Shown here: positions 1 to 40,940 of the stretch, in pieces | Numbering within the stretch: the stretch's first letter is position 1 | How the letters are laid out: each line of letters starts with the position of its first letter | Origin: Escherichia phage K30 | DNA: 40,940 nt | Direction: 5' to 3' (one strand) | Sequence record: NC_015719.1 | The notes under the pieces: model-generated | What the model was told of the DNA's origin: nothing | Databases searched by the model: none | The model's input: only the letters and a program-made list of their open reading frames with translations | Made by a program: the position numbers and the translations under genes

Positions 1-193
1 TCTCACAGTTTACACTTTTGGTTATCCCCCGGTACCCTCTAAGTTAGCCCAAAGTAACCATAGGCCACCCTAAACCTTCGGTTTAACCTTAGGTTGGACT
101 GTTGGGAACCTTGGGTGATACTATATGTAGTGGTTAGTGTGACCTTGGGATACTATATGTTGATCTCTCTGTATCCCTATCTGTTGGTACTCT

Positions 194-224
194 CTAAGTA
201 TCCACTAAGTATCCACTAAGTAAC
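194..224. repeat. Tandem 11-bp repeat CTAAGTATCCA (about 2.7 copies)
   Basis: Read directly: ctaagtatcca ctaagtatcca ctaagtaac; position is analogous to the short repeats next to the T7 left terminal repeat. Confidence 0.7.
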
Positions 225-334
225 AACCTGAGGTTAGACCTGAGGACATCCATCGACACTATACCTAAGGTTAACTATGCGTCTAACGTTTAGTTACTAT
301 AAGGCTATTGGTGACCATTGTCCATACACCAATC

Positions 335-357
335 AATTAGGTCACACTATAGGGAGA
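335..357 (+). promoter_or_regulatory. Phage RNAP promoter (phiOL-like), aattaggtcacactatagggaga
   Basis: Matches the 23-bp consensus shared by the other 12 promoters; +1 G at about 352. Confidence 0.8.
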
Positions 358-459
358 CACTTAAAGTATTACTAAGAGACCTTTACCATAAAACTACTAT
401 CACTATAGGTCTAACTATAAGACTAACTATAGGTCTAACTAAAAGTTTAACTTTAGGTG

Positions 460-488
460 TTGACATTCAGCTTACGCTATGAGACATT
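460..488 (+). promoter_or_regulatory. Candidate host sigma70 early promoter (T7 A1-like)
   Basis: TTGACA at 460-465, 17-bp spacer, weak -10 GACATT; aligns with the T7 A1 region from memory. Confidence 0.35.
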
Positions 489-593
489 AGCAACCGTTGA
501 GAGACACAACGTCACCAACAACCAGACAATACCGCGAGTTATCTGGTTAGACTGAAGGTCTCAAGTAGTCATCAACCGGACATACGAAAGTGG

Positions 594-622
594 TTGACTC
601 AACGATGAACAAGTAGTAAGAT
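594..622 (+). promoter_or_regulatory. Candidate host sigma70 early promoter (T7 A2/A3-like)
   Basis: TTGACT at 594-599, 17-bp spacer, -10 TAAGAT at 617-622; resembles T7 A3. Confidence 0.45.
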
Positions 623-723
623 GTACCACAGATTCACAGCAACGAAGTACCGCTACCTAGTAGCATCGCTCTTTAACAATATAGTTTGTGTCTTGATAGG
701 CTTACTCACAAAGGTGAACTATT

Positions 724-888
724 ATGACTAACGCACAACGTAAACGCTATGAAGCATTACAAGAGAAACTTGCTGTTGCTTATGCCGCTTGGCAAGCTAA
801 CACAGACAAGAGCAAACACGATAAACTTTACAGTAAAGTGGTTGCAATTAATGCTAAAATAGATAAACTTGTGAATAGTACCTTATAA
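724..888 (+). CDS. Hypothetical small early protein (54 aa, MTNAQRKRYEALQEKL...)
   Basis: ORF below the track threshold; ATG preceded by aaaggtga; lies downstream of the host-type promoters and is flanked by inverted repeats. Confidence 0.35.
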   Translation: MTNAQRKRYEALQEKLAVAYAAWQANTDKSKHDKLYSKVVAINAKIDKLVNSTL

Positions 889-1109
889 GATAGTTGCTGG
901 CACTAGCCGGCCTATCAAGGCACAAACCAAGCTCTTTAACAATTTGGATTAGTCGCTGATATGTATACCACCGCAATAGTGTTTAACTAGTGGTCACATT
1001 CAGGTCTCTGGCAAGGTACGCCCTGCCACCCTGATGGTTAGGCATTGCGCCTAATGAGAGTGACCATAATGATAACCACTAACTATCAATTAACTGAAGG
1101 ATATACACC

Positions 1110-1460
1110 ATGGAACGTAATGCTAACGCTTACTATGAACTTTTGGCAGCCACTGTTGAAGCATTCAACGAGCACATTCAGTACGATAAACTCACCGAGG
1201 ATGATGACTGGTATGATGCACTGCACGAGGTGGTAGACAGTCATGTTCCGCACTATTACCACGAGATTTTCACGGTGATGGCTGCCGATGGTATTGATCA
1301 CGAGTTCGATGACTCAGATCTCATTCCTGACACCAAGGATGTAAGCCGAATCTGTCAAGCACGCATCTATGAGGCACTCTATAATGACATATTGAACGAC
1401 TCTAGAGTCATCTGGTGTGAGCAGGGTGAAGATGATGAAGAGGACGACTATAATGATTAA
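1110..1460 (+). CDS. ocr: Ocr-like DNA-mimic anti-restriction protein (T7 gene 0.3)
   Basis: 116 aa, very acidic; recalled similarity to T7 Ocr (VPHYY..IF.VMA..GID.EF.DS.L.PDTKDV.RI.QARIYE); first gene after the early promoters. Confidence 0.85.
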   Translation: MERNANAYYELLAATVEAFNEHIQYDKLTEDDDWYDALHEVVDSHVPHYYHEIFTVMAADGIDHEFDDSDLIPDTKDVSRICQARIYEALYNDILNDSRVIWCEQGEDDEEDDYND

Positions 1461-1635
1461 GTATGGCATCACTCAGCAGGACATGCAGGAATACCGCAGC
1501 GCCTTTAAGACCGCTTGCGAGTGCACTGCTGGTATGCCTGAAGCAAAAGCCGACTGGTTCGGCTACTACATGGCCCAAATGGCCCAGACCTATCGCACAC
1601 GCAAGGTAATGTATGATAACCCTGTTCGTAATTAG
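1453..1635 (+). CDS. Hypothetical early protein (gene 0.4-0.6 class)
   Basis: ORF with GAGGA upstream of the ATG; overlaps the ocr stop; no recognised homolog. Confidence 0.4.
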   Translation: MIKYGITQQDMQEYRSAFKTACECTAGMPEAKADWFGYYMAQMAQTYRTRKVMYDNPVRN

Positions 1636-1810
1636 CGTATACGCCCTGATTGTCCTGTACTTTGTGCGGGACTTTCGCAAGGGTCTCAAAGTGCACAAAG
1701 CATCATTCAGTTACCTGAAGTGGGGCTTCTTGCCTCGCTTTACTGTACGGCTGCCTAATGGCCGCTTTAAGGCAAACAAAGTGGGGATATTCTATGTCGC
1801 AACATACTAA
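1613..1810 (+). CDS. Hypothetical small early protein with hydrophobic N-terminus
   Basis: 65-aa ORF; N-terminal ITLFVISVYALIVLYFV suggests a transmembrane helix; AAGG upstream. Confidence 0.3.
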   Translation: MITLFVISVYALIVLYFVRDFRKGLKVHKASFSYLKWGFLPRFTVRLPNGRFKANKVGIFYVATY

Positions 1811-2027
1811 CCTGAAGAAAGCATTCAAGATTGCACGGATGGCGATGGCGTACGGCGCCGGGGAGAGGCGCACAAAGAGAATACTCGCGGCAGGTGCTGG
1901 AAGATTGCCAGCTAGACAACGTAAATGGGTAATGCAGCAAGTATACACGGAGTTATATCACCCTCAGCGTATACCGGATGATTGTATATGGTCATCTGTG
2001 GGCTGGAAACGAGTAGTAATTAACTAA
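1794..2027 (+). CDS. Hypothetical basic early protein
   Basis: ORF track 1758..2027; internal ATG at 1794 has a better-placed purine-rich stretch; start is uncertain. Confidence 0.3.
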   Translation: MSQHTNLKKAFKIARMAMAYGAGERRTKRILAAGAGRLPARQRKWVMQQVYTELYHPQRIPDDCIWSSVGWKRVVIN

Positions 2028-2052
2028 CTAACTAACACAAGGAAACAACCTA

Positions 2053-3057
2053 ATGAACTACACCGACATGCAAGCACGCTTAGACGTCATCCGCAACCTG
2101 CCAATCTGTGAACTTGACAAGCGCCAGCCGCTGCTGGTATCACTCATCGCAAACATCGTGAACTACGAGACGTCTGACGGTGACGATACGGACAGCAATT
2201 GGGGTCTTGAAAGTCAGGGCTACTGGCAAACCTTGAAGATTAAGGCTAAAGACGCTGGGTTTAACCTGCTGGGTAATGGCCACTTCAGCGCGGCGTTTAA
2301 GCACGAGCTACTGCCGGGCAAGGTCATTAAGGTTGGCTTTAAGAAAGAAGACTCAGGGGCCGCCTATGTGGCTTTCTGTCGGATGCACCAAGGTCGGGTA
2401 GGGATACCTAATGTCTATCACGTAGCGCGTCACGCTGGCTGCTATACGGTGGTACTTGATGAGCTGGAACCATGTCAGCGCCGTGATAACCATAAGCACG
2501 ACCATTATGCAGACCTTGCGTATTACTTTGTCGAGGGAGAACCAGACCCAGAGGTATACGCGAAGGATGATCTACCATTCATCGAGACGTGCCAGATGAT
2601 TCGTAAGTTCTTCTACGGGATTGCATCATTTGATATGCATAGTGGCAACATTATGTTTACACCGGATGGTAAACCAGTGATTACCGACCCAGTGTCATTC
2701 TCAGCGGACCGGGACCGCAAGCCTTTCTCGCTGGAGCCTGAGGGCCTGCTCGCAGAGATTGAGCAGATAGCGCACGACAAGATGATTGAACGCTGTAAGC
2801 GTAACAAGGCCAAACGTGACCGTGACAGTACGCTGTGTCGTGCCCGTAGAGCAAACAACAAGGCCCGTAGAAACCGCGCTAAAGCAGCCGCGCGATGGCG
2901 GAAGGAGCGGGAAAAGCGTGTTGCCGAGCGCTTTAAGTATGACCTTGCGAAAATCGAGGAGCGCGTTCTAGCGTGGCAAGTGGGACCCGGCCTAGCAATA
3001 CAACAAGGCAAGCCGCTACCAATCGACAACTACCTTCAAGGTAGACTTATGGGTTAA
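2053..3057 (+). CDS. 0.7: Serine/threonine protein kinase, host shut-off (T7 gene 0.7)
   Basis: 334 aa; recalled strong similarity to T7 gp0.7 (LPICELDKRQ, AGF..LGNGHFSAA, KVGFKKEDSGAAY.AFCRM, FDMHSGNIMF); synteny. Confidence 0.9.
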   Translation: MNYTDMQARLDVIRNLPICELDKRQPLLVSLIANIVNYETSDGDDTDSNWGLESQGYWQTLKIKAKDAGFNLLGNGHFSAAFKHELLPGKVIKVGFKKEDSGAAYVAFCRMHQGRVGIPNVYHVARHAGCYTVVLDELEPCQRRDNHKHDHYADLAYYFVEGEPDPEVYAKDDLPFIETCQMIRKFFYGIASFDMHSGNIMFTPDGKPVITDPVSFSADRDRKPFSLEPEGLLAEIEQIAHDKMIERCKRNKAKRDRDSTLCRARRANNKARRNRAKAAARWRKEREKRVAERFKYDLAKIEERVLAWQVGPGLAIQQGKPLPIDNYLQGRLMG

Positions 3058-3070
3058 CGAGGTGTATCTT

Positions 3071-3094
3071 AGGTGCCTCCACCGCGAGGCACCT
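3071..3094 (+). promoter_or_regulatory. Perfect 9-bp stem-loop upstream of gene 1 (possible R1-type processing site)
   Basis: aggtgcctc / caccgc / gaggcacct read directly; no T-run follows, so not a classic intrinsic terminator. Confidence 0.35.
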
Positions 3095-3144
3095 ATAGAT
3101 AAACTTTATTCACCGCCAGTTTACTGGCACCAAAGAGGCACACA

Positions 3145-5865
3145 ATGAACGCATTAAACATTGCACGTAATGACTTCTCAGAGATTGAACTGGCCGCTAT
3201 TCCGTACAACATCCTCAGTGAGCACTACGGGGACAGACTGGCACGTGAGCAGTTAGCACTGGAGCACGAAGCGTACGAGCTGGGCGAACAGCGTTTCCTG
3301 AAGATGTTAGAACGTCAGGTTAAAGCTGGTGAGTTCGCCGACAACGTGGCCGCTAAGCCGCTGGTCTTAACGCTGCACCCACAGCTAACCAAACGCATCG
3401 ACGATTGGAAGGAGGAGCAAGCAAACGCTCGCGGCAAGAAGCCTCGCGCATACTACCCGATTAAGCACGGCGTTGCCTCAGAGTTAGCCCTTAGCATGGG
3501 AGCTGAGGTACTCAATGAGAAGCGTGGAGTGTCCAGTGAGGCTATCGCACTGCTGACCATTAAGGTCGTCTTAGGGACGCTCACAGACGCCTCTAAAGCC
3601 ACCATCCAGCAAGTATCCTCGCAGTTAGGCAAGGCGCTTGAGGATGAGGCCCGCTTCGGTCGTATCCGTGAGCAGGAGGCTTCCTACTTCAAGAAGAACG
3701 TAGCGGACCAGCTGGACAAGCGTGTGGGTCACGTGTACAAGAAGGCTTTCATGCAGGTCGTCGAGGCCGATATGATTTCCAAGGGGATGCTAGGCGGTGA
3801 CAACTGGTCCAGCTGGAAGACCGACGAGCAGATGCACGTTGGGACCAAGCTACTGGAACTACTCATTGAGGGCACTGGTCTGGTGGAAATGACCAAGAAC
3901 AAGATGGCCGATGGCTCTGACGATGTGACCAGCATGCAAATGGTCCAGCTGGCTCCAGCCTTCGTGGAACTACTGAGTAAACGAGCGGGAGCACTCGCAG
4001 GAATCAGCCCAATGTACCAACCGTGCGTAGTCCCTCCGAAACCTTGGGTTGAAACCGTGGGAGGTGGCTACTGGTCTGTAGGTCGTCGTCCGCTGGCACT
4101 GGTGCGTACCCACTCCAAGAAGGCACTGCGTCGCTACGAAGACGTTCACATGCCAGAGGTATACAAAGCGGTCAACCTCGCGCAGAACACACCGTGGAAG
4201 GTAAACAAGAAGGTACTGGCGGTAGTCAATGAGATTATCAACTGGAAGCACTGCCCGGTGGGTGACGTCCCAGCGATTGAACGCGAAGAGCTACCACCAC
4301 GCCCGGACGATATCGACACCAACGAGGTGGCACGTAAGGCTTGGCGCAAGGAGGCCGCAGCGGTTTACCGTAAGGACAAGGCCCGCCAGTCTCGCCGCTT
4401 GTCGATGGAGTTCATGGTCGCACAGGCCAACAAGTTCGCTAACCACAAGGCCATCTGGTTCCCGTACAACATGGACTGGCGTGGTCGTGTGTACGCTGTG
4501 AGCATGTTTAACCCACAGGGTAATGATATGACCAAGGGTATGCTGACATTGGCCAAAGGTAAGCCAATCGGTCTCGATGGGTTCTACTGGCTGAAGATTC
4601 ATGGTGCAAACTGTGCAGGCGTCGATAAGGTTCCTTTCCCTGAGCGCATCAAGTTCATCGAAGAGAACGAGGCCAACATTCTAGCGAGTGCAGCCGACCC
4701 GCTGAATAACACTTGGTGGACCCAGCAAGATTCACCGTTCTGTTTCTTAGCGTTCTGCTTTGAGTATGCAGGGGTAAAACATCACGGCCTGAATTATAAC
4801 TGTTCGCTGCCACTGGCGTTCGATGGGTCCTGCTCTGGGATTCAGCACTTCAGCGCAATGCTCCGCGATTCTATCGGTGGTCGTGCTGTTAACCTGCTGC
4901 CTTCTGATACCGTGCAGGATATCTACAAGATTGTTGCCGACAAGGTTAATGAGGTACTCCACCAGCACGTTATCAACGGGTCTCAGACGGTGGTCGAGCA
5001 GATTGCTGATAAGGAGACTGGTGAGTTCCGCGAGAAGGTAATGTTGGGCGAGTCTGTACTAGCTGCTCAATGGTTACAATACGGGGTGACCCGCAAGGTG
5101 ACCAAGCGTTCTGTCATGACGTTGGCGTATGGTTCCAAAGAGTTTGGCTTCCGCCAGCAAGTTCTGGAAGATACCATTCAGCCCGCTATCGACAATGGTG
5201 AGGGCCTGATGTTTACGCACCCTAACCAAGCGGCTGGCTACATGGCTAAGCTGATTTGGGACGCTGTGACCGTGACCGTAGTAGCCGCTGTCGAGGCGAT
5301 GAACTGGCTGAAGTCTGCTGCTAAACTGCTTGCCGCTGAAGTCAAGGATAAGAAGACCAAGGAGGTACTTCGTAAGCGTTGCGCAATCCACTGGGTAACA
5401 CCAGATGGCTTCCCAGTGTGGCAAGAGTACCGCAAGCAGAATCAAGCGCGCCTGAAGCTGGTCTTCCTAGGTCAAGCCAACGTTAAGATGACGTACAACA
5501 CCGGGAAGGACTCAGAGATTGACGCTCACAAGCAGGAATCTGGTATCGCTCCTAACTTTGTACACTCGCAAGACGGTAGTCACCTTCGCATGACCGTAGT
5601 ACATGCCAACGAGGTCTACGGGATTGACTCCTTCGCACTCATCCATGACTCCTTCGGGACCATTCCGGCAGACGCTGGGAATCTCTTTAAGGCAGTCCGT
5701 GAGACGATGGTAAAGACCTACGAGGACAACGATGTAATCGCTGACTTCTACAACCAGTTCGCTGACCAGCTGCACGAGTCTCAGCTTGACAAGATGCCAG
5801 CGGTACCAGCCAAAGGTGACCTTAATCTGCGTGATATCTTAGAGTCTGACTTTGCGTTTGCGTAA
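3145..5865 (+). CDS. 1: Single-subunit DNA-directed RNA polymerase (T7 gene 1)
   Basis: 906 aa; colinear recalled similarity to T7 RNAP across the whole length; C-terminal ...ILESDFAFA. Confidence 0.98.
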   Translation: MNALNIARNDFSEIELAAIPYNILSEHYGDRLAREQLALEHEAYELGEQRFLKMLERQVKAGEFADNVAAKPLVLTLHPQLTKRIDDWKEEQANARGKKPRAYYPIKHGVASELALSMGAEVLNEKRGVSSEAIALLTIKVVLGTLTDASKATIQQVSSQLGKALEDEARFGRIREQEASYFKKNVADQLDKRVGHVYKKAFMQVVEADMISKGMLGGDNWSSWKTDEQMHVGTKLLELLIEGTGLVEMTKNKMADGSDDVTSMQMVQLAPAFVELLSKRAGALAGISPMYQPCVVPPKPWVETVGGGYWSVGRRPLALVRTHSKKALRRYEDVHMPEVYKAVNLAQNTPWKVNKKVLAVVNEIINWKHCPVGDVPAIEREELPPRPDDIDTNEVARKAWRKEAAAVYRKDKARQSRRLSMEFMVAQANKFANHKAIWFPYNMDWRGRVYAVSMFNPQGNDMTKGMLTLAKGKPIGLDGFYWLKIHGANCAGVDKVPFPERIKFIEENEANILASAADPLNNTWWTQQDSPFCFLAFCFEYAGVKHHGLNYNCSLPLAFDGSCSGIQHFSAMLRDSIGGRAVNLLPSDTVQDIYKIVADKVNEVLHQHVINGSQTVVEQIADKETGEFREKVMLGESVLAAQWLQYGVTRKVTKRSVMTLAYGSKEFGFRQQVLEDTIQPAIDNGEGLMFTHPNQAAGYMAKLIWDAVTVTVVAAVEAMNWLKSAAKLLAAEVKDKKTKEVLRKRCAIHWVTPDGFPVWQEYRKQNQARLKLVFLGQANVKMTYNTGKDSEIDAHKQESGIAPNFVHSQDGSHLRMTVVHANEVYGIDSFALIHDSFGTIPADAGNLFKAVRETMVKTYEDNDVIADFYNQFADQLHESQLDKMPAVPAKGDLNLRDILESDFAFA

Positions 5866-5875
5866 GGTCTCAGGC

Positions 5876-5898
5876 AATTAGGGCACACTATAGGGAAC
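5876..5898 (+). promoter_or_regulatory. Phage RNAP promoter (phi1.1A-like), aattagggcacactatagggaac
   Basis: Consensus match; followed by AT-rich repeats of acttaaag. Confidence 0.85.
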
Positions 5899-5963
5899 CT
5901 TCGAACGACCGAGGTTTCCATTACTTAAAGTCTTAACTTAAAGAATACTTAAAGAGGCACACC

Positions 5964-6524
5964 ATGACTTACTCAATCGTTGTAACCATCTTGTTAATCA
6001 TCACCACAACGCTCTTCATTGTGAGTCTTCGCAATGCAATACGCAACGAAGAACTATTGGGGCGTTTGATTCAAGAAGCAAACTCCCAGCTTAGTGATGC
6101 GTCGACCAAGGTTCTTCGACTGACGGACAAGGCTAACTTCCTTGGTAAACAGGTGCGTTACTTAGAGAGTGAACTTGAGGAAGAAAAGCAGAAGGTGCTA
6201 GATGTGTACGAACTACGGAAGCGACAGCGGGACCGCATGAAGTTCCTGAGCAAGTCTCTTAAGGAAGCCCAAGATGAGCTGATGATGGTCTCTGACCTGA
6301 TTCACGTTAAGTTCACCGCTGTGTTACCTGATGGCACTCGCTCTAAGACTCTCTTTAAGTTAGGACTTGGACCTTGTGGTCTACACGTTAAGTCCCTTCG
6401 CTGGACTGAGCTAGACGACCGCTATCTGATAGACCAGCTGTGCACCAACGGCGAGCGCAAGCAGTTCACTTACTTTAAGAGCGAAGTAGTAGGGCGTATC
6501 GAGTTCCGCCACGGTAAGGTTTAA
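5964..6524 (+). CDS. Hypothetical membrane-anchored coiled-coil protein (gene 1.05 position)
   Basis: 186 aa; N-terminal hydrophobic helix, heptad-like charged stretch, about 80-aa C-terminal domain; AAAGAGG RBS; sits between two phage promoters. Confidence 0.6.
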   Translation: MTYSIVVTILLIITTTLFIVSLRNAIRNEELLGRLIQEANSQLSDASTKVLRLTDKANFLGKQVRYLESELEEEKQKVLDVYELRKRQRDRMKFLSKSLKEAQDELMMVSDLIHVKFTAVLPDGTRSKTLFKLGLGPCGLHVKSLRWTELDDRYLIDQLCTNGERKQFTYFKSEVVGRIEFRHGKV

Positions 6525-6545
6525 TTAGGGCACACTATCAGGAAC
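6523..6545 (+). promoter_or_regulatory. Variant phage promoter (phi1.1B-like), aattagggcacactatCAggaac
   Basis: Upstream half matches the consensus exactly; the initiation region is TATCAGG instead of TATAGGG. Confidence 0.55.
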
Positions 6546-6547
6546 AT

Positions 6548-6578
6548 ACTCAAGGTCATCGTTCGGTGGCCTTTATGA
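6548..6578 (+). promoter_or_regulatory. RNase III-type processing hairpin (R1.1-like)
   Basis: actcaaggtcatc-gttc-ggtggcctttatga: 9-bp stem with G:U pairs; same conserved flanks as T7 R1.1 (recalled). Confidence 0.6.
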
Positions 6579-6609
6579 ATGTCCCTAACAACCACTCAGG
6601 AGTAACACC

Positions 6610-6786
6610 ATGTATCAGAACACAATCAACTTTGAGCGCAAACGTGAACGTCAGCAGACTGAGGGTTATATCCCTAAGGGCCGCAAGTTGAACAAGACGA
6701 AGCGCGGTGGTGGCATGAAGGGTTCCTTCCGTAATGCGAAGGGCGACAGTGTTGTCAACCAAGAGAAATACTTCGTAGGAGCATAA
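6610..6786 (+). CDS. 1.1: Gene 1.1-like small basic protein
   Basis: 58 aa; shares KGRKLNKTKR with T7 gp1.1 (recalled); GGAG RBS; not in the ORF track because under 60 aa. Confidence 0.6.
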   Translation: MYQNTINFERKRERQQTEGYIPKGRKLNKTKRGGGMKGSFRNAKGDSVVNQEKYFVGA

Positions 6787-6789
6787 CAA

Positions 6790-7056
6790 ATGGCTGAGCA
6801 AACTAAATGGCTGTTCGATGGTAGCACTTCACAGTGGTCACGATTGGGCGCTACCGAACGAAGACTGACGGATGAGACGGGACTACATGTAATCATGACG
6901 TATATCCATTTCAACCGCACAGTTTTACTCTCCGTGTATGAACCAAGACCAGATTATGACGAGGTACTCATAGAGAAATCCTTCAGTCGCTGGTCGATTG
7001 ACTCAGCGTCAGACTGGCTGGCAAAACTCACAGCCGACTACTCAAGTTGGAAGTAA
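6790..7056 (+). CDS. 1.2: Gene 1.2-like protein (candidate host dGTPase inhibitor)
   Basis: 88 aa; position between 1.1 and ligase; weak recalled similarity at the C-terminus (..DW..K..WK). Confidence 0.55.
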   Translation: MAEQTKWLFDGSTSQWSRLGATERRLTDETGLHVIMTYIHFNRTVLLSVYEPRPDYDEVLIEKSFSRWSIDSASDWLAKLTADYSSWK

Positions 7057-7077
7057 TTAGGACACACTATAGGCAGA
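7055..7077 (+). promoter_or_regulatory. Phage RNAP promoter (phi1.3-like), aattaggacacactataggcaga
   Basis: Consensus match; overlaps the gene 1.2 stop. Confidence 0.8.
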
Positions 7078-7110
7078 CTCAAGGTCATCGGATTCCGGTG
7101 GCCTTTATGA
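7077..7110 (+). promoter_or_regulatory. RNase III-type processing hairpin (R1.3-like)
   Basis: actcaaggtcatcgg-att-ccggtggcctttatga; about 11-bp stem. Confidence 0.6.
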
Positions 7111-7156
7111 TTGCTTATTGCACACTAAATAAATACTACACTTCGGAGACATCATC

Positions 7157-8209
7157 ATGATGAACATTACGACTAATCCATATAAAGCCGTTTCATACGT
7201 ACGCTCTGCTATCGAGAAGGCGCTGGAGACTTCCGGTTACCTCATCGCGGACACTAAGCACGATGGTGTACGCGGGAACATTTGCGTAGACAACACGGCC
7301 AACGCAGCGTGGCTAAGCCGGGTCTCAAAGACCATTCCGGCCCTTGAGCACCTCAACGGTTTCGACCAGCGCTGGCAGCAGTTACTGAAAGATGACCGCT
7401 GGATTTTCCCGGATGGCTTCATGCTTGATGGTGAACTCATGGTCAAAGGTGTGGACTTCAACACTGGGTCTGGCCTGCTGCGTACCAAGTGGCTAAAGGC
7501 TACCAACTACGGGTTCGACTTCGGAGGTGTTCCACCACTGAAGGGTAGCAAGGTAGATTTCTGCCTCGACCCTAAGCAACTAAAAGTTGTTCTGTACGAT
7601 ATCATTCCGCTTGACATTATCGAATCCGGTGATGACTACAACGTGATGACCCTCCTCCGCCTTGAGCACGTCAAGGTAGCCTTACCAGTCCTGCAAGACC
7701 ACTTCCCTGAAGTTGAGTGGTGCCTCTCTGAGTCCCATGAAGTTTACGACATGGACGAACTCGATGCGCTGTACCGACAGAAACGAGGAGAAGGTCATGA
7801 AGGTCTGGTGGTTAAGGACCCTCAGGGTATATATAAGCGCGGTAAGAAGTCCGGCTGGTGGAAACTGAAGCCAGAGAATGAGGCTGACGGTGTAGTAGTT
7901 GGTCTCGTGTGGGGCACTCCCGGTAAGGCCAACGAGGGTAAAGTGATTGGCTTCGAGGTTCTCCTTGAGAGTGGTAGAGTGGTTAACGCTACGAACATCT
8001 CACAGGAACTTATGGATGAGTTCACCTCTCGCGTCAAGGAATACACTACCGAGTGTAATGCTAATGAAGCTGGCTGCTGGTATATGAACCCTTACGAGGG
8101 CTGGGCGTGCCAAATCAAGTACATGGAGGAGACTCCAGACGGTTCTCTGCGTCACCCATCGTTCGATAAATGGCGTGGTAGCGAGGCTGACCCAACCATC
8201 AAGATGTAA
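7157..8209 (+). CDS. 1.3: ATP-dependent DNA ligase (T7 gene 1.3)
   Basis: 350 aa; recalled strong similarity to T7 ligase including the adenylation motif region (IKYDGVRG in T7, TKHDGVRG here) and C-terminal ETPDGSLRHPSF. Confidence 0.95.
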   Translation: MMNITTNPYKAVSYVRSAIEKALETSGYLIADTKHDGVRGNICVDNTANAAWLSRVSKTIPALEHLNGFDQRWQQLLKDDRWIFPDGFMLDGELMVKGVDFNTGSGLLRTKWLKATNYGFDFGGVPPLKGSKVDFCLDPKQLKVVLYDIIPLDIIESGDDYNVMTLLRLEHVKVALPVLQDHFPEVEWCLSESHEVYDMDELDALYRQKRGEGHEGLVVKDPQGIYKRGKKSGWWKLKPENEADGVVVGLVWGTPGKANEGKVIGFEVLLESGRVVNATNISQELMDEFTSRVKEYTTECNANEAGCWYMNPYEGWACQIKYMEETPDGSLRHPSFDKWRGSEADPTIKM

Positions 8210-8230
8210 TTAGGACCCACTATAGGAGAC
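8208..8230 (+). promoter_or_regulatory. Phage RNAP promoter, aattaggacccactataggagac
   Basis: Consensus match; overlaps the ligase stop. Confidence 0.8.
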
Positions 8231-8235
8231 ACCAA

Positions 8236-8322
8236 ATGTCTATCGACCTAATTCTAATCATCGTGTTCATCCTCGCGGCTATCGTGTGGTCAATGAACGA
8301 CGAGCCACCTAAAGGAGCATAA
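8236..8322 (+). CDS. Hypothetical 28-aa hydrophobic peptide (MSIDLILIIVFILAAIVWSMNDEPPKGA)
   Basis: Short ORF immediately after a promoter, AGGAGA upstream; single predicted transmembrane segment. Confidence 0.3.
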   Translation: MSIDLILIIVFILAAIVWSMNDEPPKGA

Positions 8323-8325
8323 ACC

Positions 8326-8589
8326 ATGCGCTTACACTTCAATAAATCAAACGGTATCTTCTCGGTTCGCCGGGAAGACCGCAGCACTGTGGTAGCCTCC
8401 GAGCGCCACGGTAAGATTCCACGTATCGGAGACACCTTCGAGCTGGCTCCTCGCGTGCACATCTTGGTTACTCGCGGTCTCTACGAATTGGCTCAGACTA
8501 AGAGCCGTCCTTTCGTACCCGTAGTGGTAACCAAGTGGCCACGCCTTCGTCTATTCTGGGAGCGCATCAAGGAGGTCGTAAATGACTGA
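8326..8589 (+). CDS. 1.6: Gene 1.6-like protein
   Basis: 87 aa; recalled similarity to T7 gp1.6 (MFRLHYNKS...VRRADRS..ASER..KIP...RIKEV); AAAGGAG RBS. Confidence 0.7.
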   Translation: MRLHFNKSNGIFSVRREDRSTVVASERHGKIPRIGDTFELAPRVHILVTRGLYELAQTKSRPFVPVVVTKWPRLRLFWERIKEVVND

Positions 8590-9007
8590 ACATGAAATTC
8601 TAGTGGTGAACCTGCTGGTTGACCAGAATGCTGACCGCCCAGACTCCACGACGTGCTCTGATGGCGTAAAGTGCTACAAGGTAGCGTGCAAGGAGTGTCC
8701 GCTTAATGTCAAAGGAATGACCATTGGGAAGGTGCGTGCAATGCAGGACAGTAAGACTCCAGATGTAGACAATGGTGTCAAGCAGCCAAGTCACTATCAA
8801 CTGTTCGAAGGCGTCGAGGCCATCGAGGTTATTGCTCGAAGCATGACCCAAGAGATGTTCAAAGGGTACTGCCTTGGGAACATCCTCAAGTACCGACTCC
8901 GTGCTGGTAAGAAGTCCGAGCTGGCTACCTTAGAGAAAGACATGGCAAAGGCCGCTTTCTATCTGGAGCTGTATACCAAGCACAAAGGTCTGTGTTATGA
9001 CGCCTAG
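8582..9007 (+). CDS. 1.7: Nucleotide kinase (T7 gene 1.7)
   Basis: 141 aa; C-terminal half matches T7 gp1.7 from memory (PSHY.LF...EAIEVIARSMT.E.FKGYC.GNILKYRLRAGKKSELA.LEKD.AKA.FY.EL); shorter N-terminus than T7. Confidence 0.85.
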   Translation: MTEHEILVVNLLVDQNADRPDSTTCSDGVKCYKVACKECPLNVKGMTIGKVRAMQDSKTPDVDNGVKQPSHYQLFEGVEAIEVIARSMTQEMFKGYCLGNILKYRLRAGKKSELATLEKDMAKAAFYLELYTKHKGLCYDA

Positions 9008-9122
9008 TGAATGGGCAAGAAAGATGTACGAGAAGACGCTCGACCCTGCGTACATCACCATGTATAACATGTGGAAGGAGCGAGAAGATGCAAAAGTTCG
9101 TCGTAACGGTCGAGACAGCTAA
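8997..9122 (+). CDS. 1.8: Gene 1.8-like small protein
   Basis: 41 aa; SEWARKMYEKTLDPAYITMYNMWK resembles T7 gp1.8 SEWCRKMWEETFDDAYIKLYELWK (recalled). Confidence 0.5.
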   Translation: MTPSEWARKMYEKTLDPAYITMYNMWKEREDAKVRRNGRDS

Positions 9123-9237
9123 CGCATCGTATGAACTCCCGGTACACGCTGGGTCTCTTGAGGAGGCCCTCGAAGTTGCCGAGGCAGAGTACGAAGAGTT
9201 AGGCCAAGTGACTCGGGTACGCCCTGATAGTCATTAG
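9088..9237 (+). CDS. 2: Host RNA polymerase inhibitor (T7 gene 2)
   Basis: 49 aa from an internal ATG with AAGGAG RBS; LEEALEVAE...VTRVRP resembles T7 Gp2 (recalled). Confidence 0.7.
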   Translation: MQKFVVTVETANASYELPVHAGSLEEALEVAEAEYEELGQVTRVRPDSH

Positions 9238-9254
9238 GGCACACTATAGGGACA
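9232..9254 (+). promoter_or_regulatory. Phage RNAP promoter (phi2.5-like), cattagggcacactatagggaca
   Basis: Consensus match. Confidence 0.8.
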
Positions 9255-9296
9255 CAGGCTGTCCCTCTTTCTGTTATAAACCAAAGGAGATTCATC

Positions 9297-9992
9297 ATGG
9301 CATTCGCTAAGAAGAAGATTTACACCACCAAGATTGGTACCTGTGAGCCGTACGCTTACTTCAACAAGCCGGACTATGGCGGTGAGGGTTTTGAGAACCC
9401 ACGCGGTACCTACAAAGGTTCCGTAACGTTCAAGAACGAAGACTGTCAGGAGCTGGTAGACCTCATCGTTAAGACCCATGAGGAAAACTACGCTGCTCGT
9501 CTGGAAGCACATGAAGCGAACCCGCCGAAGGTTCAGAAGGGTAAGAAACCTCTGAAGCCGTATGAAGGCGACATGCCATTCTTCGACAATGGTGATGGTA
9601 CAACCACGTTCAACTTCAAGTGCTACGGTTCGTACGAGGACAAGAAAACCGGCGAGACCAAGAAGATTGTTCTGGGTGTAGTTGACGCCAAGGGCAAACG
9701 TATCCAAGATGTTCCAATTATTGGTGGTGGTTCCAAAGTGAAAATTCGCTTCTCTCTGGTACCGTATGGCTGGTCCGCTGTGGCTGGTGCTTCCGTTAAG
9801 TTGCAACTGGAAGGCGTAATGCTGGTCGAACTGGCTACCTTTGGTGGTGGCGAAGACGATTGGGCTGACGAAGCTGTAGAAGGTGGCTATGAAGCTGACG
9901 AATCTCGCAGCCGCAAACCTCAGGAAGACCCGGAAGACTGGTCTGGTGAGGAAGCGGATGAGGGCGAAGCTGAAGAAGACGATGACTTCTAA
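9297..9992 (+). CDS. 2.5: Single-stranded DNA-binding protein (T7 gene 2.5)
   Basis: 231 aa; recalled strong similarity to T7 gp2.5 (EPYAY..KPDYG, KPLKPYEGDMPFFDNGDGTTTF, VPIIGGGSK, acidic C-terminal tail ending DF). Confidence 0.95.
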   Translation: MAFAKKKIYTTKIGTCEPYAYFNKPDYGGEGFENPRGTYKGSVTFKNEDCQELVDLIVKTHEENYAARLEAHEANPPKVQKGKKPLKPYEGDMPFFDNGDGTTTFNFKCYGSYEDKKTGETKKIVLGVVDAKGKRIQDVPIIGGGSKVKIRFSLVPYGWSAVAGASVKLQLEGVMLVELATFGGGEDDWADEAVEGGYEADESRSRKPQEDPEDWSGEEADEGEAEEDDDF

Positions 9993-10441
9993 TGGCTGGC
10001 TACGGAGCCAAAGGGATTCGGAAGGTGGGTGCCTTCCGGTCTGGCCTTGAGGATAAGGTATCCAAGCAGTTAGAATCAAAGGGCGTCACGTTCGACTACG
10101 AATTGTGGCGCATCCCTTACGTTATTCCTGCGAGTGACCACCTTTACACTCCAGACTTCTTGTTACCTAACGGTATCTTCGTGGAGACTAAGGGTCTCTG
10201 GGAAGCCGAGGACCGCAAGAAGCACCTATTGATTCGCGAGCAATACCCGGAGTTAGACATCCGGTTAGTGTTCTCTTCGAGTCGCACTAAGATTTACAAA
10301 GGGTCACCAACCAGTTACGCTGAGTGGTGCGAGAAGCATAACATCTTGTTTGCCGACAAATTGATTCCCGTAGACTGGCTGAAGGAGCCGAAGCGTGATG
10401 TACCGTTCGGCAAGTTCAAACAGAAGAAAGGAGCAAAGTAA
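9992..10441 (+). CDS. 3: Endonuclease I, Holliday junction resolvase (T7 gene 3)
   Basis: 149 aa; N-terminal MAGYGAKGIRKVGAFRSGLEDKVSKQLESKG identical to recalled T7 gp3. Confidence 0.95.
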   Translation: MAGYGAKGIRKVGAFRSGLEDKVSKQLESKGVTFDYELWRIPYVIPASDHLYTPDFLLPNGIFVETKGLWEAEDRKKHLLIREQYPELDIRLVFSSSRTKIYKGSPTSYAEWCEKHNILFADKLIPVDWLKEPKRDVPFGKFKQKKGAK

Positions 10442-10443
10442 GT

Positions 10444-10899
10444 ATGGCTAAGGTTCAATTCACTAAGCGACAGGAGACCTCTCAGATTTTCGTTCACTGC
10501 TCAGCTACCAAGGCGACCATGAATATTGGCGTCCGTGAGATTCGCCAGTGGCACAAGGAGCAGGGCTGGCTGGACGTAGGGTATCACTTCATCATCCGCC
10601 GTGACGGTACCGTTGAGGTAGGTCGAGACCAAGATGCTGTAGGTTCACACGTCAAAGGCTACAACTCGACTTCGGTCGGCGTGTGTTTGGTGGGAGGTAT
10701 CGACGCCAAGGGCAACCCTGAGGCAAACTTCACTCCAGCCCAGATGCAGGCACTGCGTTCACTGTTGGTAGAACTGAAGGTGCAATACGATGGGGCTGTT
10801 CTGATGGCACACCACGATGTAGCACCTAAAGCCTGCCCGAGCTTCGACCTGAAGCGCTGGTGGGAGAAGAATGAACTGGTCACTTCAGACCGTGGGTAA
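10444..10899 (+). CDS. 3.5: Lysozyme / N-acetylmuramoyl-L-alanine amidase, RNAP inhibitor (T7 gene 3.5)
   Basis: 151 aa; recalled near-identity blocks with T7 lysozyme (IFVHCSATK, VREIRQWHKEQGWLDVGYHFII, AHH.VAPKACPSFDLKRWWEKNELVTSDRG). Confidence 0.95.
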   Translation: MAKVQFTKRQETSQIFVHCSATKATMNIGVREIRQWHKEQGWLDVGYHFIIRRDGTVEVGRDQDAVGSHVKGYNSTSVGVCLVGGIDAKGNPEANFTPAQMQALRSLLVELKVQYDGAVLMAHHDVAPKACPSFDLKRWWEKNELVTSDRG

Positions 10900-10900
10900 A

Positions 10901-10923
10901 CATTAGGGCACACTACAGGGAGA
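10901..10923 (+). promoter_or_regulatory. Variant phage promoter (phi4-like), cattagggcacactaCagggaga
   Basis: Consensus match except TACAGGG instead of TATAGGG. Confidence 0.6.
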
Positions 10924-10962
10924 CAATTACGTTTCCCTGTTGTCGCTTGAGGAGATTACTTT

Positions 10963-12897
<1,935 letters not shown>

Positions 12898-39969: not shown

Positions 39970-40049
39970 CTATGCAGGGATTGTGCATAAGGATTCATTG
40001 GGCCACGGAAGGCTGCTTTGGGGAAACTCCATGTATAACAGACACTTGG

Positions 40050-40072
40050 AATTAGGACCCACTATAGGGAGA
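40050..40072 (+). promoter_or_regulatory. Phage RNAP promoter (phiOR-like), aattaggacccactatagggaga
   Basis: Consensus match, downstream of gene 19 as in T7. Confidence 0.85.
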
Positions 40073-40213
40073 GACCACTCAAAGATTACTATAAGACAAC
40101 TTAAAGATTCATTCATATAGTTATTCACTTTAAGTCTCCTTACAGATAGAGGGTAGTGATGATAATATCACCCTCTCACTCTAAGACACTAAGAGCCAAC
40201 ATAAGGAGGACCT

Positions 40214-40363
40214 ATGCGCTTATTGTTAACCTTACTGCGCCATAGGACTACTTGGCGATTTCTGCTGGTACTTGCTGGTGCCCTTGGGGCTTCACTGGTT
40301 ACTCAGCAGCAACTCGGTGGACTGGAGACTCTCGTGTGCTCTCTACTCACTTGTAGCGATTAG
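40214..40363 (+). CDS. 19.5: Gene 19.5-like small hydrophobic protein (49 aa)
   Basis: TAAGGAGGA RBS; MRLLLTLLRH...LVLAGALGASLV is hydrophobic; positioned after phiOR like T7 gene 19.5. Confidence 0.45.
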   Translation: MRLLLTLLRHRTTWRFLLVLAGALGASLVTQQQLGGLETLVCSLLTCSD

Positions 40364-40540
40364 GGTCTTCCTGACGCGCTAGGGATTCCGTAGTGATGCT
40401 TATCAGCATACACCACTCCATCCCTCTATAGTCAATACTTAAAGTTAACCTTAGGTGATTCACTGGGTCTACCTACGGGTCTATGCACTGACCTGAGGAT
40501 TACCTGAGGTTACCTTTAAGAATATTACATAAAGTTCTGA

Positions 40541-40940
40541 GTGTATATCTCACAGTTTACACTTTTGGTTATCCCCCGGTACCCTCTAAGTTAGCCCAAA
40601 GTAACCATAGGCCACCCTAAACCTTCGGTTTAACCTTAGGTTGGACTGTTGGGAACCTTGGGTGATACTATATGTAGTGGTTAGTGTGACCTTGGGATAC
40701 TATATGTTGATCTCTCTGTATCCCTATCTGTTGGTACTCTCTAAGTATCCACTAAGTATCCACTAAGTAACAACCTGAGGTTAGACCTGAGGACATCCAT
40801 CGACACTATACCTAAGGTTAACTATGCGTCTAACGTTTAGTTACTATAAGGCTATTGGTGACCATTGTCCATACACCAATCAATTAGGTCACACTATAGG
40901 GAGACACTTAAAGTATTACTAAGAGACCTTTACCATAAAA
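40541..40940. repeat. Right copy of 400-bp direct repeat (includes a second copy of the phiOL-like promoter at about 40875-40897)
   Basis: Identical to positions 1-400 by direct reading. Confidence 0.8.

What the first reader, a model, noticed from the sequence alone, without database searches (positions are those of the whole stretch)
226..245. ACCTGAGG motif pairs flank the terminal repeat on both sides
ACCTGAGG occurs twice at 226-245 just right of the left repeat and twice at 40491-40509 just left of the right repeat copy. The 11-bp tandem CTAAGTATCCA lies next to the left pair. T7 has analogous short repeats bordering its terminal repeat that are implicated in concatemer processing and packaging.
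Basis: partly seen in the sequence, partly recalled or inferred. Interest (0 to 1): 0.4.

Follow-up and report, generated by a model that had tools for sequence, protein, structure and literature searches.

The report
Short repeats flanking phage terminal repeat
The ACCTGAGG pairs are real and sit at conserved places beside the terminal repeat of this T7-like Klebsiella phage. They are its version of the short repeat arrays long known in phage T7, so the finding is a sound but largely expected feature whose packaging role remains unproven.

Summary
It is about 44-fold denser in the non-coding genome-end DNA than elsewhere. One correction: the window's exact end repeat is 393 bp (1-393 = 40548-40940), so the left pair lies inside it and recurs at 40773/40785. 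Relatives with mapped or annotated ends have 180-183-bp repeats ending just before ATCTGTT (window 179-185). The true repeat is therefore probably 1-178 and the pairs do flank it.

The window is a K11/KP32-type Klebsiella phage (Przondovirus). In about 50 distinct relatives both right-hand CCTGAGG cores are invariant at -57/-46 from the repeat start, while neighbouring bases vary. The left side is a variable array of 0-4 CCTGAGG copies at 12-14-bp spacing.

Other T7-group clades carry a different heptamer at the same places, mostly the same one on both flanks: CCTAAAG, CTATCAG, CCTTATG, CCTAATG or CCTTGAG.

This matches the T7/T3 flanking short-repeat arrays. The likeliest role is redundant docking sites for the DNA-maturation and packaging machinery. 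That role is inferred, and T7 insertion data suggest single sites are dispensable. Verdict: new member of a known kind, modest interest.

The parts
226..233 (+). Left ACCTGAGG copy 1. It is the first 8 bp of the 11-mer ACCTGAGGTTA, which is shared exactly with the right flank.
238..245 (+). Left ACCTGAGG copy 2, 12 bp start-to-start from copy 1.
263..270 (+). ACCTAAGG, a variant unit of the same left array (family CCT[GTA]AG[GA]).
194..222 (+). 11-bp tandem CTAAGTATCCA x2.6. This is a window-specific expansion of the first post-junction unit (relatives have one TTAAGTATCC). It pushes the first CCTGAGG core to +48, the largest offset among 53 distinct relatives.
179..185 (+). ATCTGTT, the class II pause/termination signal of T7-type RNA polymerase ('CJ'). 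It follows the inferred repeat end ...GTATCCCT directly.
   Evidence: annotated in K11; signal described in 10.1101/2021.01.11.426313
1..178 (.). Inferred true left terminal repeat (TCTCACAG...GTATCCCT).
   Evidence: homology to mapped or annotated 180-183-bp repeats
40548..40725 (.). Inferred true right terminal repeat copy.
40726..40940 (.). Extra copy of 179-393 beyond the inferred repeat. It contains the duplicate motif pair (40773-40780, 40785-40792) and a second phiOL. Probably over-extension from assembly or annotation, so 40364-40940 reads like a concatemer junction.
   Evidence: (other records end 177-182 bp after the repeat start, or at arbitrary lengths)
40491..40498 (+). Right ACCTGAGG copy 1, at -57 from the repeat start.
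40502..40509 (+). Right ACCTGAGG copy 2, at -46 from the repeat start and 11 bp after copy 1.
40448..40455 (+). ACCTTAGG variant unit in the right flank. It pairs with right copy 2 in the predicted hairpin.
40512..40547 (+). Pre-repeat block ACCTTTAAGAAT...AAGTTCTGAGTGTATA, conserved across all T7-group clades sampled. Candidate left-end cleavage signal.
40435..40523 (.). Imperfect inverted repeat: arms 40435-40466 and 40492-40523, 78% complementary, 25-nt spacer. It includes the right pair.
   Evidence: present in K11; no equivalent fold in T7 or T3
40050..40072 (+). K11-type phage promoter (phiOR position). It would drive transcription through the right pair and the repeat into ATCTGTT.
335..357 (+). 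K11-type phage promoter (phiOL position).

Best explanation
The ACCTGAGG pairs are the przondovirus form of the short direct-repeat arrays that flank the terminal repeat (TR) in T7-group phages.

**Layout.** In a replicating concatemer the order is: phiOR promoter, gene 19.5, right-flank pair, conserved pre-TR block, TR, ATCTGTT pause site, left-flank array, phiOL promoter. Each clade uses its own heptamer, here CCTGAGG. The copies sit on the same strand, about one helical turn apart (11-14 bp), on both sides of the TR.

**Proposed role (inferred).** The copies act as partly redundant docking sites for the maturation and packaging complex: small terminase gp18 and large terminase gp19, recruited with the phage RNA polymerase paused at ATCTGTT. 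The invariant right-hand pair plus the adjacent conserved block would mark where packaging of a genome's right end is set up and where the left-end cut is placed. The copy-number-variable left array would be an accessory or termination-side element.

**Shown versus inferred.** Shown here: the anatomy, the positional conservation and the clade-wise co-variation of the two flanks. Inferred: which protein binds, and any effect on cutting, repeat duplication or packaging.
For: - **Identity of the phage.** K11-type promoters occur at 9 or more sites. The relatives are Klebsiella przondoviruses. T7-type gp18 and gp19 are present (PF11123, PF22530).
- **Right pair.** CCTGAGG x2 sits at -57/-46 in every przondovirus junction fetched. 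In 50 distinct right flanks, 14 of 14 core columns are invariant against 126 of 170 other columns (Fisher P 0.018). The 3-nt spacer and the 4 nt upstream vary.
- **Left array.** In 53 distinct left flanks CCTGAGG occurs 0-4 times and the wider family 1-6 times. Spacing is mostly 12-14 bp and the array starts 23-48 bp after the TR. The unit consensus is (A/C)nACCTGAGGTnAn(A/C).
- **Co-variation between clades.** The heptamer most repeated in the left flank is also repeated in that clade's own right flank in five of nine clade representatives: T7 (CCTAAAG), L029 (CTATCAG), L038 (CCTTATG), L111 (CCTAATG) and L043/L126 (CCTTGAG). T3 also has CCTAAAG repeated on both sides, and the window has CCTGAGG twice on each side. 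Shared 7-mers between a clade's own left and right flanks total 66, against a permutation mean of 27.7 (0 of 20,000 permutations reach 66).
- **Conservation of the right flank.** It is 95-99% identical in more than 200 phages, while the first 12 kb of the genome and the left end are about 80-94% identical.
- **Literature.** T7 packaging needs pacB/pacC, with gp18 recognising pacB (PMC9860248). [quoted passage not shown] A class II signal lies at the CJ.
Against: - No binding or functional data exist for these motifs.
- A T7 insertion screen found most genome-end loci non-essential, except positions 142 and 162 (PMC11482910). Single repeats are therefore probably dispensable in T7.
- The left copy number drops to 0 exact CCTGAGG in 2 of 53 distinct relatives (K5 is one example), although variant units remain.
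- gp18 is 72-80% identical across clades that carry different heptamers, so there is no obvious co-variation with the protein.
- The whole right flank is highly conserved, so the extra invariance of the cores is only modestly significant (P 0.018).
- Only five of eleven clade representatives show a clear pair at the right-hand slot; others have one copy or none.
- If the true TR were 393 bp, the left pair would be internal to it.
Confidence: 0.5

Rival explanations
1. The repeats are by-products of replication slippage or tandem duplication in non-coding end DNA. They have no sequence-specific function and persist because the region tolerates them.
For: - Copy number and offsets of the left array vary freely among close relatives.
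- The window has its own 11-bp tandem, and other clades show 24-bp and 33-bp tandem expansions.
- Most T7 end loci tolerate insertions.
Against: - The right-hand cores are invariant in 50 distinct sequences while adjacent bases vary.
- The same clade-specific heptamer recurs on both sides of the TR in several clades. Slippage within one array does not explain this.
- Identical 11-mers in direct orientation on either side of an essential element would be a deletion risk if they were useless (inference).
Confidence: 0.2
2. The right pair matters as DNA structure rather than as a protein site. It forms one arm of a hairpin or cruciform that serves as an intermediate or primer for duplicating the terminal repeat.
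For: - There is an imperfect inverted repeat at 40435-40466 / 40492-40523 (78% complementary). As single-stranded DNA it folds at -15.3 kcal/mol, z -3.1, with 1 of 200 shuffles as good. K11 gives the same result.
- A 'hairpin' end on T7 concatemers has been reported; I saw only the title of Chung, Nardone and Hinkle 1990 in reference lists.
- CCTNAGG is nearly palindromic.
Against: - The equivalent stretches of T7 and T3 do not fold better than shuffles (z -0.8 and -0.3), and no comparable inverted repeat is found there.
- There is no variation within przondoviruses with which to test compensatory changes.
- It does not explain the left array.
Confidence: 0.12
3. The repeats serve replication or transcription at the genome ends. 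They could be auxiliary elements of the phiOL/phiOR-associated origins, primase or helicase loading sites, or modulators of RNA polymerase pausing downstream of ATCTGTT.
For: - The arrays lie between the pause site and phiOL on the left, and downstream of phiOR on the right.
- GGGTCTA x2 (GGGTC is a T7 primase recognition sequence, from my own knowledge) lies next to the right pair.
- T7 packaging plasmids are described as needing the phiOR origin plus the junction.
Against: - The heptamer itself contains no primase trinucleotide.
- The motif changes between clades whose replication proteins are conserved.
- There is no direct evidence.
Confidence: 0.1

Closest known systems
Short direct-repeat arrays bordering the T7 and T3 terminal repeats (CCTAAAG-type units; I recall them from Dunn and Studier 1983 and the T3 literature as 'SRL/SRR', and could not retrieve those papers here)
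   Same: - Non-coding location immediately on both sides of the TR.
- Same strand, 7-8-bp core and 11-14-bp period.
- The left array starts a few tens of bp after ATCTGTT.
- The right pair sits directly upstream of the conserved CCTTTAAGAAT...TCTGAGTG block.

All of this was verified on the T7 and T3 sequences.
   Different: - The core is CCTGAGG (with CCTTAGG and CCTGAGA variants) instead of CCTAAAG.
- The window has only two exact copies per side.
- The window has an extra 11-bp tandem of its own.
T3/T7 packaging signals pacB (terminase binding) and pacC (cleavage), from Fujisawa and Hinkle laboratory work as summarised in PMC9860248
   Same: Cis-acting elements in the concatemer junction region. 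The right pair plus the conserved block lie where such signals are expected, and the main T3-versus-T7 sequence difference in that stretch is the pair itself.
   Different: The mapped coordinates of pacB and pacC were not available to me. No binding or transduction data exist for ACCTGAGG, so equivalence is a hypothesis.
T7 concatemer-junction (CJ) class II pause signal ATCTGTT
   Same: It is present at the homologous place (179-185), directly after the inferred TR end, as in T7, T3 and K11.
   Different: It is a neighbour of the motif, not the motif itself. The ACCTGAGG pair starts 41 bp downstream of it.
Repeated small-terminase sites of other phages (lambda cosB R-elements and cosQ; SPP1 pacL/pacR boxes), from my own knowledge
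   Same: Arrays of short direct repeats near or on both sides of the terminase cut site, bound by an oligomeric small terminase.
   Different: The sequences and proteins are unrelated. T7-type maturation must also duplicate the repeat. This is an analogy only.

Membership tests
T7-group TR-flanking short-repeat arrays | Lies in non-coding DNA directly adjoining the terminal repeat on both sides of the concatemer junction | tested here: met
   With the TR taken as 1-178, the left pair is at +48/+60 and the right pair at -57/-46. The first gene starts near 724 and gene 19.5 ends at 40363. This is not met if the window's 393-bp repeat is taken at face value.
T7-group TR-flanking short-repeat arrays | Several direct copies of a 7-8-bp core, same strand, roughly one helical turn apart | tested here: met
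   Spacing is 12 bp on the left and 11 bp on the right, and all copies are on the + strand. Relatives have up to 4 exact and 6 family copies at 12-14-bp spacing.
T7-group TR-flanking short-repeat arrays | Positional correspondence with the T7/T3 arrays | tested here: met
   Anchored comparison of right flanks and of left flanks after ATCTGTT.
T7-group TR-flanking short-repeat arrays | Conserved in relatives next to experimentally mapped ends | tested here: met
   K11 (TR 180 bp), Saitama (181 bp) and Adeo (182 bp); primer-walked repeats of 180-183 bp.
pacB-type terminase recognition site | Bound by gp18/gp19; required for packaging of junction plasmids; cloned copy interferes with phage growth | not testable with these tools
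   Only the general description was available. The T7 insertion screen suggests end loci are mostly dispensable one at a time.
Genuine direct terminal repeat of 393 bp (as the window is laid out) | Repeat boundaries coincide with physical genome ends | tested here: inconclusive
   - The sequence repeat is exact over 393 bp.
- Seven other przondovirus records end 177-182 bp after the repeat start, and four others at arbitrary lengths.
- Mapped repeats are 180-183 bp.
- The only similar claim (K5, 392 bp) rests on a 454 assembly without end mapping.
- ATCTGTT sits at 179.
Restriction-site (CCTNAGG) avoidance or use | Site depleted in the genome, or confined to special places | tested here: not met
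   CCTNAGG occurs 38 times against 11.3 expected. Internal sites are mostly in-frame CCT-(G/A)AG-G codon pairs.

The most novel reading that the evidence does not exclude
The clade-specific heptamers on both sides of the terminal repeat form a packaging 'address code'. The terminase of each T7-group clade would read its own heptamer: CCTGAGG in przondoviruses; CCTAAAG, CTATCAG, CCTTATG, CCTAATG or CCTTGAG elsewhere. The right-hand pair would be the specificity part of pacB. Motif turnover would then set which co-infecting phage's DNA is packaged, and swapping the heptamers could retarget transducing particles.
Probability: 0.2. Interest if true: 0.6.

Novelty: new member of a known kind. Interest (0 to 1): 0.35.

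Why it matters
- **Record quality.** The finding fixes where the real genome ends of this phage probably are: a 178-bp repeat, not 393 bp. It also flags a likely over-extended repeat in this record and in phage K5.
- **Design targets.** It gives a concrete map of the cis-elements around the concatemer junction of Klebsiella T7-like phages, which are widely used as therapy candidates and as chassis for transducing particles. The right-hand pair plus the conserved 36-bp block are the obvious pieces to keep, or to test, when designing packaging plasmids.
- **Wider question.** Each T7-group clade has its own heptamer, mostly shared by both flanks. This simple, testable regularity bears on the old open question of what the T7 flanking repeats are for.

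Tried and rejected
- **Restriction-site idea.** CCTGAGG fits CCTNAGG, the Bsu36I/Eco81I-type site. Rejected: the site is over-represented, not avoided, and the internal copies are explained by codon pairs.
- **Structured RNA.** No Rfam family matches anywhere in the window.
- **Hairpin as a general feature.** A significant fold exists only in przondoviruses, not in T7 or T3. Kept as a minor rival.
- **gp18/gp19 co-variation with the heptamer.** The proteins are 67-83% identical across clades and any signal is confounded by phylogeny, so this is uninformative. No solved structure matches gp18 by sequence.
- **Literature.** A search for CCTAAAG returned only noise. Searching 'SRL/SRR' found nothing. 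The key 1983-1997 T7/T3 papers are not held, so statements about them rest on my memory or on citing papers.
- **Second IMG/VR scan.** Only the T7-like loci were used.
- **The window's own record.** It is not in the phage collection; the best match is VLCpiA3d at 93.9%. I could not read its annotation.

Full report
**What the window is.** The sequence starts TCTCACAG like T7. It carries K11-type phage promoters (AATTAGGGCACACTATAGGGAGA) at nine or more places. It encodes T7-type small and large terminase (PF11123, PF22530). Its closest relatives are Klebsiella przondoviruses of the K11/KP32 group. It is IMG/VR contig IMGVR_UViG_651703039_000001, 40,940 bp. The identical record is not in the phage collection searched; the best match is 93.9%.

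**Checking the observation.** ACCTGAGG occurs exactly where stated: 226, 238, 40491 and 40502. It also occurs at 40773 and 40785, and four times inside genes.
- The window has 10 matches against 1.83 expected, and no shuffle reaches 10.
- In the non-coding junction DNA the motif is 44-fold denser than elsewhere (4 in 907 bp against 4 in 39,640 bp; P 2.7e-6). The looser forms CCTNAGG and ACCTNNGG are 11-fold and 17-fold denser.
- The 11-bp tandem is real: 194-222, 2.6 copies.

The weak point is the repeat boundary. The window's exact repeat is 1-393 = 40548-40940 and runs to the window end. As the window is laid out, the left pair is therefore inside the repeat.

**Where the terminal repeat (TR) really ends.**
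- K11, annotated by a T7 laboratory, has a 180-bp repeat followed by a 'concatemeric junction' feature at 180-188.
- Saitama and Adeo have 181 and 182 bp.
- Primer walking and Sanger sequencing gave 180-183 bp for ten przondoviruses (10.1101/2023.03.09.531871).
- Seven other przondovirus records in IMG/VR stop 177-182 bp after the repeat start. Four others stop at arbitrary lengths (239, 329, 335, 570), which suggests assembly overlaps.
- Only K5 has a comparable figure, 392 bp. Its paper describes 454 assembly with no end mapping.
- In the window, the sequence ...CTCTCTGTATCCCT|ATCTGTT at 165-185 matches the T7, T3 and K11 repeat ends. ATCTGTT is the class II pause signal of T7 RNA polymerase, known at the T7 concatemer junction.

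I conclude, by homology, that the true repeat is 1-178 and that 40726-40940 is an over-extension. On this reading 40364-40940 reads as a concatemer junction. It cannot be proved from sequence alone.

**Right-hand pair.** In every przondovirus junction fetched, CCTGAGG x2 lies at -57 and -46 from the repeat start. The fetched set comprised GenBank records and about 60 IMG/VR loci. Among 50 distinct 184-nt right flanks, all 14 core columns are invariant, against 126 of 170 other columns (Fisher P 0.018). The middle base of the 3-nt spacer and the four bases upstream vary. The whole right flank is unusually conserved: 95-99% identity in more than 200 phages, against 80-94% for the left end and the first 12 kb.

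**Left-hand pair.** The pair is part of a variable array. In 53 distinct przondovirus left flanks:
- CCTGAGG occurs 0-4 times (mode 2-3).
- The family CCT[GTA]AG[GA] occurs 1-6 times (mode 4).
- Spacing is mostly 12-14 bp, and the first core lies 23-48 bp after the repeat end.
- The unit consensus is (A/C)nACCTGAGGTnAn(A/C).

The window has the largest offset (48) because of its private 11-bp duplication.

**Comparison across the T7 group.** I anchored the right flanks at the repeat start. The last ~37 bp (CCTTTAAGAAT...ACAnAAAAATCTGAGTGnnTA) are shared by all clades. The 25-30 bp just upstream hold clade-specific direct repeats:

| Clade | Right-flank repeat |
|---|---|
| Przondovirus | ACCTGAGG-N3-ACCTGAGG |
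| T3 type | ACCTAAAG-N5-GCCTAAAG |
| T7 type | GCCT(A/G)NGG-AGTY-CCTAKAG |
| L028 type | CATTAGGT x2 |
| L029 type | CTATCAGT x2 |
| Some other clades | one copy or none |

In most clades with both flanks available, the left flank repeats that clade's own heptamer: CCTAAAG (T7, T3), CTATCAG (L029), CCTTATG (L024, L037, L038, L202), CCTAATG (L111) and CCTTGAG (L043/L126). L195 and L197 show no clear shared heptamer. With nine clade representatives, the 7-mers shared between a clade's own left and right flanks total 66, against a permutation mean of 27.7 (0 of 20,000 permutations). The ~12-13-bp period is the same in T7.

In T7 that architecture is long known (my recollection of Dunn and Studier 1983; the sequence facts were re-verified here).

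**Mechanism.** Steps taken from papers:
- T7 packaging uses pacB/pacC, with gp18 recognising pacB and gp19 cutting.
- Junction plasmids need phiOR plus the junction and its surroundings.

From these and the anatomy I infer the following. The heptamer copies, spaced about one helical turn apart on both sides of the repeat, are redundant docking sites that help the terminase complex assemble on the junction and place the cuts at the repeat boundaries. The invariant right pair, next to the universal pre-repeat block, is the best candidate for a specificity element, because it is also the main difference between T3 and T7 in that stretch. The left array would be accessory.

Evidence against a strict requirement:
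- Most T7 genome-end loci tolerate barcode insertions, except positions 142 and 162 at the repeat end.
- Left copy number is free to vary.
- gp18 is 72-80% identical across clades with different heptamers.

**Rivals.**
- Neutral slippage explains the copy-number changes but not the invariance or the left-right sharing.
- A structural role gains some support from a 32-nt imperfect inverted repeat that includes the right pair (single-stranded fold z -3.1 in the window and in K11). T7 and T3 show nothing comparable.
- Roles in replication or transcription are possible but unsupported.
- A restriction-site reading is rejected.
- No Rfam family matches.

**Verdict.** This is a real, positionally conserved feature. 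It is a new member of a known kind (the T7-group flanking short repeats) with a different core motif, and its function is inferred rather than shown. The most useful by-products are the corrected repeat boundary and the clade-by-clade heptamer regularity.

Noticed in passing
window 1-393 and 40548-40940; L015/L016 (K5): The window's end repeat is 393 bp and K5's is 392 bp, ending at homologous positions just after ACCATAAA. Mapped przondovirus repeats are 180-183 bp. The K5 value comes from a 454 assembly without end mapping. Both records are probably over-extended.
   Followed up: yes
window 402-458: A 12-bp array, ACTATAGGTCTA x4.8 (also readable as 24 bp x2.4), lies just downstream of phiOL. 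The unit resembles the phage promoter core CACTATAGG. K5 and Adeo have a shorter version.
   Followed up: partly
window 40465-40471 and 40477-40483: GGGTCTA is repeated 12 bp apart next to the right pair. GGGTC is a T7 primase recognition sequence (my own knowledge). GGTCT-type repeats also recur in the right flanks of other clades.
   Followed up: no
window 40435-40466 / 40492-40523: A 32-nt imperfect inverted repeat (78% complementary, 25-nt spacer) includes the right pair and the CCTTTAAG box. The single-stranded DNA fold is -15.3 kcal/mol, z -3.1. The same fold appears in K11, but T7 and T3 have no equivalent.
   Followed up: yes
window 324-296 (- strand): A leftward sigma-70-like promoter, TGGACA-17-TATAGT (10 of 12 matches). 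It recalls the leftward A0 promoter annotated near the left ends of T7 and T3.
   Followed up: no
whole window: CCTNAGG occurs 38 times against 11.3 expected from shuffles. Internal sites are mostly in-frame CCT-(G/A)AG-G codon pairs (Pro-Glu or Pro-Lys), with a cluster of seven between 18057 and 19098. This looks like coding bias rather than a signal.
   Followed up: partly
window 40040-40547 versus 1-12000: The phiOR-gene 19.5-right flank stretch is 95-99% identical in more than 200 Klebsiella phages. The left end and the early genes are only about 80-94% identical. This is one of the most constrained parts of the genome.
   Followed up: partly
L101 (IMGVR_UViG_3300045988_001073): A przondovirus contig in which the 13 bp CCCTATCTGTTGG (repeat end plus pause site) are missing, between ...CTCTGTGTG and CCTCTTTAAGT. 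It is either an assembly error or a natural variant lacking the CJ signal.
   Followed up: no
L201 and L119 left flanks: Other T7-group clades have long tandem expansions right after the junction: a 24-bp unit GGAACCACTGAGTATCATT(G/A)A... repeated many times, and a 33-bp unit x4 containing CCTTATG. This region is prone to array expansion.
   Followed up: no
window 117-128 / 149-160 and 108-115 / 142-149: Inside the terminal repeat, GATACTATATGT and ACCTTGGG each occur twice, 32-34 bp apart, so the repeat itself is built from short repeated units.
   Followed up: no
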